Origin: Camelus dromedarius
Taxonomy: Eukaryota
Assembly (NCBI RefSeq): GCF_036321535.1
Contig: NC_087436.1
Coordinates: 28,026,001-28,090,000 of the forward strand
DNA length: 64,000 nucleotides
Direction: 5' to 3'
Shown in pieces: positions 3,583-26,838 of the stretch (position 1 is the first letter of the stretch; the number at the start of each line of letters is the position of its first letter). The translations under genes and the position numbers were made by a program. Under the pieces are notes generated by a model that saw only the letters and a program-made list of their open reading frames with translations, was not told the origin of the DNA and did no database searches.

Positions 3583-5941
3583 ACCATGAATCCATAAATT
3601 GTATAAAATATCAGCTGATCTTTGAAATGAGCTTACTCTGCATTTGAAAGATCTACCTGCATGTGTGTGCATGTGTGCGAGTGTCTATGTGTGTGTTTGC
3701 ATACTCAGGTTTGTACACATGGACAGAAGTAAGAAGTAAGTAAGTAATTACCTAGAGGTTTCCTGAGTAAAAAGGAGTAACACTGGAACTTCATAGTATT
3801 GGATTTCCTGATTATCAGAAATATAAACTTCACCCAGGGAAAGTATGTTACTCAGATTTTCTCAAGGTGACAAAAAAAGAGCAAAGAAAATGCCTTTTGG
3901 TGGCATTTATTTTCCCTTTGTGCTAGACAGCAAGTGATGGGCAGCGTAGAGATAGAAAATTAGCAATGAGGGAGGTTTAAAGAGAATAGAGACAGTTTGA
4001 AGTAGTTATGGGGAAAGAAAGGGTCAGTCGCTTTAATATGCTGTTTTAAGATTCCATGTCTGTCAGTGGCTGCCTCCCCCATCAATGAACGAATCTCCCT
4101 TTACTCTTTTATGAAATGATACTAGGCAGAAAAGAACACAACTGTCCCCACAGAATTTTGTCATTCAGAGTAGTAGTTATATCGGCTATGTTCTTGCCCT
4201 CAAGGCTGTACCTGGCTTGGGATTTTTTCTCAGTTTGTATAAATTGCAGTTAATCTAGTTAAGAAGGAAGGAAACTTTGATGTATTTTTATCATCACCAC
4301 TTCAATTAAATGTAATGTTTATATTTTTAATCCTGTACAAATGAAATTTAATATTTCTATGTGAAGAAAAATGAAATAGAATAAAATTTGGAAAAACAAG
4401 AAGAAAAAAAAAACCTGATTAACAGCAGCACTGGCTCCTATAATAACCATCTATAAAACACCACCTGAAAGACTCAGTGTCTATTTCAAGGGCTGCTGAA
4501 TTGTTAATGAGTAATTCAAGACAATTTGCTACTTAAATGGAAGTATGAATGAGTGTTATTACAGAAAACGTGTTAAATCATAAAGACAGTAGATAAGCAA
4601 GAGTTAAAACTGGTAGGAGGAAAAAATGTAAGAAGTCAATCAAATTAGCATGAGCTTAAATAAGTACCTTTTATACCTTTTGTTCCAACCAACAAAAGCA
4701 GCTGTTTAGCTATCTAAAGTGACTTAGATCCATTTGCATTTATCTCCTCTTAATACATTAAAATTTACCATGTAAAGACTAAGTCTATTTTTTCGTCTAT
4801 AGATCACAGGTGTTCAAGAAATTTAGCCAGTTCCCCAACCTTCTTTAAATACAGTTTCTCTAGATTTGAAATATGGAAATGAAATCAGCAGCTTTCCTAA
4901 CTCCTAGACTTATAAATTAAATTCAACTACATAAATTTTAAAGGTAATAAATTTTTATTTAAATATTTACTATCTTGTTTTTTATGTGCTTTGTATCTAA
5001 TAAAATGCTATAACAGTAAAAACTTTAGTTGTTCAGGCAGTGGGATAGTTGTGTTTATTTCACTATTACATAACCACAGTACAGGAAAATGAGTTGCTGT
5101 ATACATTTGTCATTACTTTAATTTTGAACCTGAGGACATACTGCCTACATAGATATGTAAGTACCTGCACAAATATATGACTTTTACCAAATAGACTGCA
5201 AATTATTCTAGAACAAAGCACAAGTCTGAACACAGATGCACAATGAACACTTTTTATTTTATTTTAAGGTTGTATTTTATAATTTATCAACTAAAATAAT
5301 TTAGGTAGGTAAATCCTCCAATTGAGAAACCAGTAAGTACTGCTATGAATACTGCCTATATGATAGTTTTCAACCAATTTAGATTAAAGGAATAAATCTA
5401 AAATGATTTTATTAAATTACTGTAAAAAGGTTTGCTCATAAGTACGTCATTTTTTAACATACACTTAAAGAATAATGAAAATGCATTCACTAGACAGATA
5501 TAAAATAGTTTATTCCCAGGTACATATAGATCTCAGGGTTAAAAATAATTATTTTCTTTTTATCCTGTTTCACAACTAAAATGATCAAGATGTTTAAACT
5601 AAATTTATGATCTAGTAAATGACAGTAGATACTACAGCTTTGTAATTAGAATCATCTTTTCCAACTTTAGATTTCTTTGCTATTTCATCATGACAATTAT
5701 TATACTATAAAATAAAACCTATGCTCTTAAACACCAAACGGTTCACCTTCTGTTAGACCACAGTGTTAGTTTTTGATTCTAAAATATGGAATTTTTTCTT
5801 ACTTGAATTTTCCTAATTTAAAAAGGCATGTTGTTAAATCTAATAGGAAGCTAATTAAAATGCTCAGCTATATGCTTCTAATTATAGGTTGTAATTCTTA
5901 ATAAGTTATTCTTAGAAGTTTAATATATATGTGTAATGATA

Positions 5942-7420
5942 TTATTATTAAAATATCAAGTTATCAAATTATCAAAATACCAATGGTATTTTTCACAGAA
6001 CTAGGACAAAAAAATTTTAATTTGTATAGAAATACAAAAGACCTCGAATAGCCAAAGCAATCTTGTGAAAGCAAATCAGTGCTGGAGGAATCATGCTCCC
6101 TGCCTTCAGACTCTACTATAAAGCTACAGTAATCAAAGTAGTTTGGTACTTGTACAAAAACAGACATGTAGCTCAATGGAATAGAATAACAGCCTAGAAA
6201 TAAACCCGCATACTTATGGTCAGGTAATCTATGACAAAGGAGCCAAGAAAATATAATGGAGAAAAGACAGTGGCTTCAATAAGTTGTGCTGGGAACACTG
6301 GACAGCTACATGTGAAAGAATAAAATTAGAACATTCTCTAACACCGTATACAAAAATAAATTCAAAATGTATTAAAGACCTAAATGTAAGATGGGACACT
6401 ATAAAATTCCTAGAGTAAAATATAGGCAGAACACACTTTGACATAAATTGCAGCAATATTTTTTTGGATCTGTCTCCTAGAGTAATGAAAATAAAAGCAA
6501 AAATAAACAAATGGGACCTAACAAAACTCAAAAGCTTTTGCACAATAAAGGAAACCATAAACAAAACAAAAAGACAACCTACAGAATGGCAGAAAATATT
6601 TGCAAATAATGTGACTGACAAAGGATTAATTTCCAAAATATACAAACTCATACAGTTCAATATCCAAAAAACAAACATCCCAATCAAAAAATGGGCAAAA
6701 GACCTAAATAGATATTTTTACAAATAAAACATACGATGGTCAACAAGCATATGAAAATACACACAACATCACCTAATTATTAGAGAAATGCAAATCAAAA
6801 CTACAATGAGGTATCACCTCACACCAGCCAGAATGGCCATCATCAAACAGTCTACAAATAATAAATGCTGGAGAGGGTGTGGAGAAATGGGAACCCTTGT
6901 ACACTATTGGTGGGAATGTAAATTGGTGCAGCCACTATAGAGAACAGTATGAAGGTCCCTTAAAAAACTAAAAGTAGAGTTTTCTTATGATACAGCAATC
7001 CCACTCCTGGGCATATATCCAGAAAAGATGAAAACTCTAATTTGAAAAGATACATGCACTCCGATGTTCATAACAGCACTATTTACAATAATTAAGACTT
7101 AGAAGCAACCTAAATATCTATGGATAGATGAATGGATAAAGAAAATGTGATATACATACACATACACACACACACACATACACACACACACACACAATGG
7201 AATATTACTCAACTATAAAGAAACGGATGAAATAATGCCATTTGCAGCAACAAGAATGCACCTAGAGATTATCATACTAAGTGAAGTAAGTCAGACAGAG
7301 AAAGACAAATGTCATATGATATAACTTATATGTGAAAGCTAAAAAAATGATGCAAATGAACTTCTATACAAAACTGAAATAGACTCACAGACATAGACAA
7401 TAAACTTGTGGTTCCCAAAG
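5942..7420 (+). mobile_element. L1 (LINE-1), 5'-truncated: 3' ORF2 and start of 3' UTR (left part of an interrupted element)
   Basis: ORF 6464-6727 translates to an L1 ORF2 C-terminal region (KAKINKWDLTKLKSFCTIKETINKTKRQPTEWQKIFAN). Stops and frameshifts occur elsewhere. Left TSD copy AATATATATGTGTAATGATA at 5922-5941. Confidence 0.95.
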
Positions 7421-7687
7421 TGGATTTTCCCAACCCAGGTGCAGTGAACAAAGGATCCAGGAACCCAGGAGAGGGAAGAATAACTCTCCAAAACCAGGTG
7501 CAGTGAAGAAGGCCCCCAAGAAAGGCAACAAGACCTAGGACCAAGAGGCAAGAGTGGATGAAGCCAGGAAGTCCTCTCAACAGCTGAACAAGGACACGAA
7601 GACCCCTTCCAGTGCCAGTGGGCCTGTGGGAAGTCAAAGGTAGAAGGAGCAGCCGAGATTCTTAAGTCCAAAGGAAACAAAAGCTGG
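7421..7687 (+). pseudogene. H1-8: Processed pseudogene of oocyte-specific linker histone H1.8 (H1oo), 5' piece (C-terminal tail coding region)
   Basis: Hand translation across frameshifts gives DFPNPGAVNKG...SPKPGAVKKAPKKGNKT*DQEARVDEARKSSQQLNKDTKTPSSASGP..GKSKV...TKAG. This is colinear with the human H1FOO tail as I recall it (EDPPN...PPKPGAA...GEARK...APSSAGG...KTKA). In-frame TAG at 7536-7538. Confidence 0.85.
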
Positions 7688-8240
7688 TGAGGCAGGAAGC
7701 CCCATAAGACTGGCAGGACCCCTAGGCAGGGCCACTGCTCTCCTCCCAGCACCATCCGGTTCCCTGGCCCAGAGGCTTTATCTCACTTTTTGCCTCTAAA
7801 GCAGCTAACTTACACCTAGAATTCTATTGGTTCCCTGAGCTCACTTCTGATTGGTTATTACTCTCACTTCTGATTGGCTATTACTCTCACTTCTGATTGG
7901 TCCACTTCCCTAACTTCTGATTGGTCCATTTGTAGTACTTCATTTGCATGGAGCCTCACTCCTGATTGGTCTATTTCTACAAAGCTTGTTCCTGGTTGGT
8001 CAACTTTTGTTGTATTTTATTTGCATATGATGTTGCAAAGTGTAAAACTGGCAGCCTATAAAAGGCCTGTGTAAACCTACAGACAGGGTCCAGAATTTGA
8101 AGTGTTAACTTCTCTGGGCTAGCTGGTGTAATAAACCTGAGTTCTCCAACTCTCCGAGTGCTGCTTGGTCTCTTACCTGGATCCAGGTTGCTGTCACAAC
8201 TGAGCTGTAACACTGAGCTGTAACACATTTTCCCGCAACA
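7688..8240 (+). mobile_element. Solo LTR (ERV1-type), 553 bp, inserted in the H1-8 retrocopy
   Basis: TG...CA termini (TGAGGCAGG...CCCGCAACA) with a perfect 4-bp TSD CTGG at 7684-7687 and 8241-8244. TATAAAA at 8057-8063 and AATAAA at 8130-8135. Confidence 0.9.
7826..8063 (+). promoter_or_regulatory. LTR U3 promoter module: six ATTGG (inverted CCAAT) boxes, two octamers, TATA box
   Basis: ATTGG at 7826, 7850, 7873, 7896, 7920 and 7965 (unit CTCACTTCTGATTGG, ~23-24 bp period). ATTTGCAT at 7942-7949 and 8019-8026. TATAAAA at 8057. The motifs are seen directly; activity is unknown. Confidence 0.65.
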
Positions 8241-8244
8241 CTGG

Positions 8245-8644
8245 GAGTCAGAGTTCAAAACCAGCAGTCACCAAGGGTAAGAATGGTGCTGCTTCCACAG
8301 CCAAAAAGAAGATGGGGAACAAGGTCCCTAAAGAGGTTGCTGCCTAGGGGGCTGGAGAGAGGCTGAAAGTCAAGGCTCCTGCTCTTCTCAAGGGCAGTGG
8401 GTCCAAGATGGAGCCTGTACCATTGGCCAGGAAGGCAGAGGCTCCCAAGGGCCCAAGGAGGCCTAGCATTCCCACCAAGTCCTCACCGTCCAAAATGGTC
8501 AATAAGAAGGCACAAGCTGAGAGCTAGAGGCAGGGTGGAGAGAGACTGGACTCTACATTTTTATTACCCTAAAAGCAGTCACTCTACTTACTTCACTATA
8601 ACCTATTTATCAATAAAGACTTTTTCCCCTGACACACAAAAAAA
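8245..8644 (+). pseudogene. H1-8: Processed pseudogene of H1.8 (H1oo), 3' piece with stop codon, 3' UTR and poly(A) remnant
   Basis: Translates SQSSKPAVTKGKNGAASTAKKKMGNKVPKEVAA*GAGERLKVKAPALLKGSGSKMEPVPLARKAEAPKGPRRPSIPTKSSPSKMVNKKAQAES*. This matches the recalled human H1FOO C-terminus (SKSSKPTASKVKNGAASPTKKK...AKGSGSKVVPAHLSRKTEAPKGPRKAGLPIKASSSKVSSQRAEA*). Premature TAG 8345-8347, natural TAG 8525-8527, AATAAA 8612-8617, A7 at 8638-8644. Confidence 0.9.
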
Positions 8645-8646
8645 CT

Positions 8647-8926
8647 GTTGGGATTAACAGACAAATACAACTATATATAAAATAGATAAACCACAACGAC
8701 CTGATATATAGCACAAGGAGCCATATTCAATATCTTGTAATAACCTATAATGGAAAAGATTCTGAAAATATATATAAATTTATCTATATGTGTCTATACA
8801 TGTATATATAATTGAATCACTTTACTATACACTTGAAACTAACACAACATTGTAAATCAATTATACATCAATAAAAAGTTGTTTCAAAAATAATAATGAA
8901 TAAATAAAAGTAATACTAATTATTTA
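8647..8926 (+). mobile_element. L1 3' UTR end and A-rich tail (right part of the element starting at 5942)
   Basis: GGGATTAACAGAC...ATAGATAAAC...ATTCAATATCTTGTAATAACCTATAATGGAAAAG...AACACAACATTGTAAATCAA is a cetartiodactyl-type L1 3' end. Right TSD copy AATACACATGTGTAATGATA at 8927-8946 (2 mismatches to the left copy). Confidence 0.92.
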
Positions 8927-9019
8927 AATACACATGTGTAATGATAGTTTTAGTTATAGCAAGTATGTATTGACTTATACACACACAACAGACATTTTGA
9001 AGATCAGTTTAAATTCATA

Positions 9020-25888: not shown

Positions 25889-26838
25889 CTTCAATAAGTA
25901 GTCCTGGGAAAACAGGACAGCTACATGTAAAGAATGAAATTAGAACATGGTCCTGGGAAAACAGGACAGCTACATGTAAAGAATGAAATTAGAACAATCT
26001 CTAACACCGTATACAAAAAGTAAACTCGAAATGAATTAAAGGACTAAAGTAAGACCTGATACTATAAAACTCTGAAGAGGAAAACATATGCAGAATACTC
26101 TTTGACATAAATCAAAGCAATATTTTTTGGATCCCTCATCTAAAGCAAAGGAAATAAAAGCAAAAATAAGCAAATGGGACCTAATTAAATTTAAAAACTT
26201 TTGCACAGCAAAGGAAACCACTGACAAAACAAGACAACCTACTGAATTGGAGAAAATATTTGCAAATGATATCACCAATAAGGGATTAATATCCAAAATA
26301 TATAAATTGCTTATAAAACTCAACATCAAAACAAAAACAAAAACAAAAAAACTGATTAAAAAATTGGCAGAACTGACTAGACATTTTTCCAAAGAGGAAA
26401 TGCATATGGCCAACAGGTGCATGAAAAGATGCTCAACATCTCTAGTCATCAGGGAAATGCAAATCAAAAATACAATGAGATATCACCTCATACCTATCAG
26501 CATGGCTATCATCAAAAAGAACATAAATAACAAAAGTTAGTAAGGATGTGGAGAAAAGGGAACCCGTGTATACTGTTGGTGGGAATGTAAATTGGTGCAG
26601 CACTGTGTGAAACACTATGGGAGTTTCTCAAAAAAAAAAAAAAAAAAAAAGGAAAGAAAGAAAAAAACAGAGCTACCATATGACCCAGCAATTCTACTCC
26701 TGGGTACATATCCAAAGAAACCCAAAAAGACTAATTCAAAAAGATGTATACAGACCAATGTCCATAGCAGCATTATTTACAAATGACAAGTAGCATTATT
26801 TACAATTGTTAAGTATTCATTAACCCATGAATGGATAA

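What the first reader, a model, noticed from the sequence alone, without database searches (positions are those of the whole stretch)
7421..8644. Hidden retrocopy of the oocyte-specific linker histone H1-8 (H1FOO/H1oo) inside an L1 3' UTR
Seen: a GC-richer island interrupts the L1 3' UTR. It is absent from the ORF track because of stops and frameshifts, but hand translation gives a Lys/Ala/Pro/Ser-rich tail ending ...KGSGSKMEPVPLARKAEAPKGPRRPSIPTKSSPSKMVNKKAQAES*. A short 3' UTR follows, with TTTTAT (8559-8564, CPE-like), AATAAA (8612) and an A run (8638). Established: H1-8 is a polyadenylated, intron-containing maternal mRNA largely restricted to oocytes and early embryos, unlike replication-dependent H1s. 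Inference: the copy records retrotransposition in the female germline or zygote. Because it is buried among repeats it may be masked and unannotated.
Basis: partly seen in the sequence, partly recalled or inferred. Interest (0 to 1): 0.7.

Follow-up and report, generated by a model that had tools for sequence, protein, structure and literature searches.

The report
Egg-histone retrocopy sandwiched inside an L1
A dead, intron-less copy of the tail of the egg-cell histone gene H1-8 sits inside a LINE-1 jumping gene in place of about 27 of its bases and is split by a retroviral LTR; it is one of six H1-8 copies found in this camel genome and likely records reverse transcription in an egg or very early embryo.

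Summary
Observation confirmed. Window 7422-8644 is a 5'-truncated processed pseudogene of H1-8. It crosses two exon junctions of the five-exon parent on contig C17 without the 792- and 415-base introns, keeps the CPE-like motif, AATAAA and an A tail, lacks the globular domain, and carries stops and frameshifts. A 553-base solo LTR with a 4-base duplication splits it. It has no duplication of its own: it replaces about 27 G-rich bases of the L1 3' UTR, with microhomology at its 5' join, while the whole L1 has a 21-base duplication. Copy and L1 cannot be told apart in age (ratio 0.86, 95% interval 0.58-1.23); a protein tree places the copy early on the camel stem. Five more H1-8 copies lie at unrelated loci, and human H1-8P1 is a listed symbol, so this is not a one-off. 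Best reading: later L1-driven insertion with target-site deletion (0.55). Live rival: one out-and-back template switch, L1 to H1-8 mRNA to L1 (0.33). Egg or early-embryo origin is inferred from mouse and cattle expression. Expression of the copy was not tested.

The parts
5922..5942 (+). Left copy of the target-site duplication of the whole L1
   Evidence: 18 of 21 bases match 8927-8947 (D20); 0 of 297 control pairs of AT-rich 100-base stretches reached 18
5971..7424 (+). 5'-truncated L1: end of ORF2 and first part of the 3' UTR
   Evidence: ORF2p matches; related copies align from 5970-5972 and up to 7424; 9.0% and 9.4% non-CpG difference from the L1 majority
7416..7424 (+). 5' join with microhomology: GGA shared by L1 and H1-8, preceded by CAAAG present in both at a one-base offset
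   Evidence: side-by-side of window, L1 copy L035, parent and C27 copy
7422..7687 (+). H1-8 retrocopy, left half (3' part of exon 3, start of exon 4; exon 3/4 junction after 7657; premature TAG 7536-7538)
   Evidence: 78% to parent mRNA 486-710, E 7e-46; junction crossed without the 792-base intron; stop read
7684..7687 (+). LTR target-site duplication CTGG, left copy (right copy 8241-8244)
   Evidence: 13 of 24 sister LTRs also show exact 4-base duplications
7688..8240 (+). Solo LTR, 553 bases, TG...CA, six ATTGG boxes (7826-7965), TATAAA 8057, AATAAA 8130; same sense as the retrocopy
   Evidence: 1687 first-look candidates, best copies 92-93% identical; termini and duplications; motifs
8241..8644 (+). 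H1-8 retrocopy, right half (rest of exon 4, exon 5; exon 4/5 junction after 8275; premature TAG 8345-8347; parental stop 8525-8527; 3' UTR)
   Evidence: 84.6% over 390 bases to parent mRNA 758-1147, E 2e-122, across the 415-base intron
8558..8644 (+). CPE-like TTTTTAT (8558-8564), AATAAA (8612-8617), A7 tail remnant (8638-8644)
   Evidence: same motifs at the same offsets in the parent's 3' UTR; the A run is absent from the parent's genomic sequence
8645..8647 (+). Three unassigned bases (CTG) between the A tail and the resumed L1
8648..8926 (+). L1 3' UTR end and A-rich tail, resuming a median 27 bases downstream of the left break
   Evidence: 71 of 87 L1 loci are contiguous across this point, gap 6-50, median 27; 8.6% from the L1 majority over 8648-8880
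8927..8947 (+). Right copy of the L1 target-site duplication

Best explanation
This is a dead, spliced, 5'-truncated copy of H1-8 mRNA that L1 reverse transcriptase likely pasted, likely in an egg or cleavage-stage embryo, into an L1 that had probably landed not long before, losing about 27 target bases instead of duplicating them. Shown: spliced structure, tail, truncation, missing L1 bases, microhomology, later LTR insertion. Inferred steps: (1) an L1 inserted and made the 21-base duplication; (2) ORF2p took an H1-8 mRNA by its poly(A), primed at a nick or break just 3' of the G-rich tract of that L1's 3' UTR and copied about 670 bases; (3) the cDNA end annealed to CAAAG/GGA upstream of the tract and end-joining removed the tract; (4) at roughly a fifth of the present age a provirus entered and was reduced to a solo LTR. 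The copy would make no histone: it starts at codon ~161, past the globular domain.
For: Two introns absent. A tail at the same site as in four sister copies. No duplication next to the joins and a 27-base gap fit target-site deletions as described in PMC10760644 (passage: truncated, A-tailed, no TSD, few to thousands of bases lost; 5' microhomology). Point estimate of age is slightly younger than the L1: 30 changes seen, 34.9 expected at the L1's age after correcting for base make-up; about 2 of the 30 may be ancestral states, giving 0.80. No second case of an A tail abutting this L1 position was found (1 match, the window itself; 0 matches), so no recurrent switch site is shown. None of the other five copies abuts this L1 segment. 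LTR is younger: nearest pairwise non-CpG distance 3.7%, about 1.9% per lineage. [quoted passage not shown]
Against: The 3' join is not an L1 endonuclease site: the A tail is followed by CTG-TTGGG, whereas priming at the nearby AT/AAAT site should have left AAATTAGGAG behind the tail; this needs extra changes or an endonuclease-independent break. The ages overlap fully (0.58-1.23). Copy and L1 are in the same sense. The lost bases are the very tract in which 6 of 28 L1 copies end (2.4 expected, P about 0.03, chosen after the fact). All of this also fits one event. Camel expression of H1-8 was not tested.
Confidence: 0.55

Rival explanations
1. One event with two template switches: ORF2p copied the last ~280 bases of an L1 RNA, stalled near the G-rich tract, jumped to the poly(A) end of an H1-8 mRNA, copied ~670 bases, jumped back to the L1 RNA just upstream of the tract through the CAAAG/GGA homology, and copied 1.45 kb more; the single outer duplication closes the whole L1-mRNA-L1 unit.
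For: One duplication round everything and none round the copy. Same sense. Ages indistinguishable; left and right L1 parts equally old (9.0-9.4% and 8.6%; ratio 0.86). 3' join is not an endonuclease site and has three extra bases. The skipped tract is enriched for L1 5' ends (7 of 29 loci, 6 of 28 after merging one duplicate pair). Double switches are on record for LINEs (PMC2104539, passages).
Against: No second example at this L1 position (strict patterns, which miss decayed copies). The enriched L1 5' ends lie 16-30 bases upstream of this join, not at it. Published tripartite cases join three different RNAs, and the 17 human mRNA/L1 chimeras of PMC13174262 (section 13) carry the mRNA at the 5' end of the L1. 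Microhomology and target loss are ordinary for sequential insertions.
Confidence: 0.33
2. An ordinary insertion with a normal duplication whose joins were later eroded by deletions in the unstable G-rich tract, or a chimeric H1-8/L1 cDNA that recombined into the resident L1.
For: The tract varies widely among L1 copies (gap 6-50 bases; 4 of 71 at 13 or less).
Against: Needs separate deletions at both joins; the 5' microhomology points to a join made at insertion.
Confidence: 0.1
3. Segmental duplication of the H1-8 locus, or a copy of a different gene.
For: None found.
Against: Introns of 792 and 415 bases absent; no flank homology with the parent's downstream DNA or with other copies (0 hits); protein hits are H1.8.
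Confidence: 0.01

Closest known systems
Processed pseudogenes made in trans by L1 (PMC2912911, PMC4314676; passages read); human H1-8P1 (one table row in PMC12519442)
   Same: Spliced, A-tailed, 5'-truncated, distant from the parent, decayed; an H1-8 pseudogene symbol already exists in human (its structure was not checked).
   Different: No target-site duplication; nested in a same-age, same-sense L1 with loss of its G-rich tract; six copies in one genome.
L1 insertions with target-site deletion (Gilbert 2002, Symer 2002, as summarised in PMC10760644; passage read)
   Same: 5' truncation, A tail, no duplication, small loss of target, 5' microhomology.
   Different: Those are commonly at endonuclease sites; this 3' join is not. 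The cargo is an mRNA, not L1.
Bipartite and tripartite LINE chimeras (PMC2104539, passages; PMC13174262, abstract and sections 10 and 13)
   Same: Several same-sense pieces inside one duplication; partner's 3' end joined to a truncated L1 3' part.
   Different: Here the outer pieces are two colinear parts of one L1 (out-and-back), which I did not see in the parts read. Contemporaneous arrival, the test used in PMC13174262, could not be run.
Pseudogene recycling by solo LTR promoters in oocytes (PMC5538554; passages read)
   Same: A sense solo LTR with TATA and CCAAT-type boxes lies in an older pseudogene, upstream of an intact CPE-like motif and AATAAA.
   Different: Those are ERVL/MaLR LTRs with transcripts shown; this LTR makes 4-base duplications (ERV1-like, recalled rule), carries its own AATAAA, and no transcript is shown.

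Membership tests
Processed pseudogene of H1-8 | Best match is H1-8 | tested here: met
   parent model 344 of 347 residues identical to a camel H1oo protein; parent exon 2 holds PF00538
Processed pseudogene of H1-8 | Exon junctions without introns | tested here: met
   exon 3/4 and 4/5 junctions crossed; 792 and 415 bases absent
Processed pseudogene of H1-8 | Poly(A) remnant not templated by the parent locus | tested here: met
   A7 at 8638, 21 bases after AATAAA ends; parent has no such run; short and decayed
Processed pseudogene of H1-8 | Distant from parent, coding capacity lost | tested here: met
   C1 versus C17; starts at codon ~161; TAG stops; indels of 1, 3, 8, 3, 1 bases
Canonical TPRT insertion | Target-site duplication round the insert | tested here: not met
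   no repeat next to the joins; 27 target bases missing
Canonical TPRT insertion | L1 endonuclease site (TT/AAAA) at the 3' join | tested here: not met
   tail followed by CTG-TTGGG; an eroded AT/AAAT site cannot be excluded
Insertion with target-site deletion into a resident L1 | Empty site (L1 with intact tract) existed before the insert | not testable with these tools
   no related genomes are held for this window
Insertion with target-site deletion into a resident L1 | Loss of target bases with 5' microhomology | tested here: met
Tripartite template-switch chimera | One duplication round all parts, same sense | tested here: met
Tripartite template-switch chimera | Parts arrived at the same time | tested here: inconclusive
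   age ratio 0.86 (0.58-1.23); cross-species presence test not possible
Solo LTR of an endogenous retrovirus | TG...CA ends, short duplication, dispersed sister copies with the same ends | tested here: met
LTR-recycled, expressed pseudogene | Transcript starting in the LTR and ending at the H1-8 poly(A) signal | not tested
   no reads were laid; two RNA runs hold 0.41 and 0.37 of sampled words, which does not show start, strand or RNA origin

The most novel reading that the evidence does not exclude
An L1-mRNA-L1 sandwich made in one reaction: in an egg or cleavage embryo on the early camel stem, L1 reverse transcriptase left its own RNA at the G-rich 3' UTR tract, copied a maternal H1-8 mRNA and returned to the same L1 RNA. 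That would be an out-and-back template switch by a mammalian L1, and would tie L1 reverse transcription itself, not only trans-mobilisation, to the cell in which H1-8 mRNA is stored; the six H1-8 copies would show that this route was used repeatedly.
Probability: 0.3. Interest if true: 0.65.

Novelty: new member of a known kind. Interest (0 to 1): 0.38.

Why it matters
When in development heritable retrotransposition happens is an open question, and a review names retrocopies of genes restricted to one germline as the clue to look for (PMC4314676, passage; PMC6681178, passages, calls evidence for the human germline limited). H1-8 is such a gene, and six independent copies of different ages make a small dated series rather than an anecdote. 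The copies also keep ancestral states of a fast-changing gene on a lineage with no living side branches: this copy keeps the outgroup residue at 21 sites where the camel gene has changed. The copy itself is almost certainly without protein function, an H1-8 pseudogene symbol exists in human, and the join can be explained by known L1 behaviour, so the interest is moderate unless the single-event reading is proven.

Tried and rejected
Expression: no reads could be laid on the stretch, so it is open. At least 322 of 1671 31-mers (0.19) also occur in other repeat copies held, so the four small shares need no transcription of this locus; the two larger ones exceed that floor but could be DNA carry-over. 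Recurrent switch site at the tract: pattern searches gave only the window and nothing; the control position gave 7 rows at 6 loci, mostly A-rich L1 variants. DNA tree of the six overlapping sequences was unresolved (supports 12-43). 3' UTR fold is not unusual (z 0.29). Pfam found nothing in the three window peptides. A third 'stop' at parent codon 246 sits in an ambiguous indel and is not counted. Literature: 'H1FOO + retrocopies' and 'H1foo + processed pseudogene' gave 0 papers; six pseudogene-name terms gave 1 paper, a table row. Other searches. The library lacks most subscription papers. Supplements of PMC13174262 and PMC2104539 were not opened and may list L1-mRNA-L1 cases. PMC5470649 and PMC10356639 (passages) added nothing decisive; PMC5538555 was seen as abstract and opening only. 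Earlier-findings look-ups by sequence, by words and by relatives found nothing on H1-8.

Full report
Observation. The sequence at 7421-8644 is as described. The 58-residue open tail finds 5 proteins, 3 of them named histone H1.8/H1oo, best E 7e-13. The flanks are L1: two frames match human ORF2p residues 981-1081 and 1098-1153 and thousands of first-look candidates exist in the genome.

Parent. Own-genome searches found the parent on G000:C17, minus strand: five exons, introns of 4575, 1735, 792 and 415 bases with GT-AG ends, an open frame of 347 residues, 344 of 347 identical to a Camelus H1oo protein, with the linker-histone domain in exon 2. The genome is therefore a camel's. Mouse H1foo also has five exons (PMC9688445, passage).

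Retrocopy. The window copy covers parent mRNA about 481-1150. It crosses the exon 4/5 junction in one BLAST alignment (84.6% over 390 bases) and the exon 3/4 junction in the multiple alignment. It begins at codon ~161, so the globular domain (codons ~46-122) is missing, and it has two clear premature TAG stops and five indels. The CPE-like TTTTTAT and AATAAA sit at the same offsets as in the parent; the A run is not in the parent's DNA. That TTTTTAT is a CPE consensus is recalled, not from a call.

LTR. Bases 7688-8240 begin TG, end CA and are flanked by CTGG on both sides. Sister copies are 90-93% identical; 13 of 24 show exact 4-base duplications, and the nearest differ by 3.7% at non-CpG sites, about 1.9% per lineage. 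It entered the retrocopy, so it is younger. It points the same way as the retrocopy and holds six ATTGG boxes, a TATA box and its own AATAAA. I describe it only.

The joins. Of 87 L1 loci fetched (a few are duplicates of one another), 71 run through the point of insertion, with 6-50 bases (median 27) between the equivalents of 7424 and 8648; 9 had only the right part, 5 only the left, 1 both far apart, 1 neither. Those bases are the G-rich tract, and they are missing here. No repeat lies next to the joins. At the 5' join GGA is shared by L1 and H1-8, and CAAAG precedes it in both at a one-base offset. At the 3' join the A tail is followed by CTG and then L1; this is not a TT/AAAA site. The L1 as a whole has a 21-base duplication, 18 matches, reached by 0 of 297 control pairs.

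Ages. The L1 differs from the majority of its relatives by 9.0% (7.5-10.8) in ORF2, 9.4% left and 8.6% right of the insert. The H1-8 copy has 30 private non-CpG changes in 332 sites, 9.0%. Corrected for base make-up, 34.9 are expected at the L1's age: ratio 0.86, interval 0.58-1.23; 0.80 if two ancestral states are removed. Only the right half of the copy enters this count. A protein tree of 21 rows (C33, C28 and C27 left out as too short or too decayed) groups parent, this copy, C6 and C36 at 80/82 support, with this copy branching first, inside an artiodactyl clade at 97/98; support is moderate and the rows are pseudogenes. The copy shares the parent's derived residue at 7 sites and keeps the outgroup residue at 21. 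No absolute date was computed.

Sister copies. Five more H1-8 pieces lie on C6, C27, C28, C33 and C36. With the window copy, 4 of 6 cross at least one junction (C1, C6, C27, C36); C28 and C33 match exon 5 only and end in short A-rich runs at the same site. Their 1-kb flanks share nothing with each other or with the parent's downstream DNA (0 hits). Private changes run from 6.6% (C36) to 20% (C28), so they likely span a long time; C28 and C27 may predate camels. The count is a lower bound.

Mechanism. Both leading models use ORF2p and the H1-8 poly(A). In the sequential model the mRNA copy enters a resident L1 with target-site deletion, a known outcome (PMC10760644, passage). In the single-event model the enzyme leaves L1 RNA near the tract and returns to it. 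For the latter: one outer duplication, same sense, equal ages, a non-endonuclease 3' join, and an excess of L1 5' ends in the tract (7 of 29 loci within 30 bases, 6 of 28 after merging a duplicate pair, 2.4 expected, P about 0.03, after the fact). Against it: those ends lie 16-30 bases from this join, no second case turned up, and the chimeras in the parts I read of PMC2104539 and PMC13174262 have other layouts. I put them at 0.55 and 0.33. The test that separates them, an empty orthologous site, needs genomes not held here.

Timing in development. [quoted passage not shown] If camel ancestors were alike, all six copies arose in an egg or cleavage embryo. This is inference: camel expression was not tested, and low expression in other germ cells cannot be excluded. 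PMC4314676 names such copies as clues to the timing of heritable retrotransposition.

Expression of the copy is open. Two RNA runs of one reproductive-tract study hold 0.41 and 0.37 of the sampled words, above the 0.19 floor that other repeat copies explain, but nothing was laid, so DNA carry-over is not excluded.

Novelty. A processed pseudogene with a target-site deletion and a nested LTR is a new member of a known kind; a human H1-8P1 symbol exists. I found no paper on H1-8 retrocopies. Interest 0.38; 0.65 if the out-and-back switch is proven.

Noticed in passing
G000:C6:73842225-73842814, C27:7619306-7619711, C28:22895702-22895932, C33:18058352-18058600, C36:2982808-2983156: Five further H1-8 copies of different ages at unrelated loci; C6 joins mRNA position 320 directly to 649; C27 lacks the 3' end; C36 keeps a 16-base A tail.
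   Followed up: partly
window 7657; L014 (C6); L018 (C27): All 3 copies that cross the exon 3/4 junction lack the first CAG of a CAGCAG acceptor, so the templates likely used the distal acceptor, while the camel and whale protein models use the proximal one; two buffalo isoforms differ by just this residue.
   Followed up: partly
L088-L116: 7 of 29 L1 3' fragments end within 16-30 bases of the join, inside the G-rich tract: a possible 5'-truncation hotspot of this L1 family.
   Followed up: partly
G000:C17:3890532-3899203 (L011, L012): The camel H1-8 tail changed fast after this copy arose: 21 sites where the pseudogene keeps the outgroup residue.
   Followed up: partly
L037, around local 1750 on the minus strand: Another L1 copy breaks off right after the AAATTAGGAG motif, at the equivalent of the window's 3' join, and continues into non-L1 sequence.
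   Followed up: no
P0023, P0038, P0042, P0083: Several carnivore proteins are named 'H1.8-like', some marked low quality; they may be H1-8 retrocopies in other mammals.
   Followed up: no
window 26036-26540: A second L1 ORF2-like fragment on the plus strand (motifs recalled, not searched). No other long frame in 9000-64000 looked like a gene.
   Followed up: no
window 7150-7197: A (CA)n microsatellite has grown inside the L1 near the end of ORF2.
   Followed up: no
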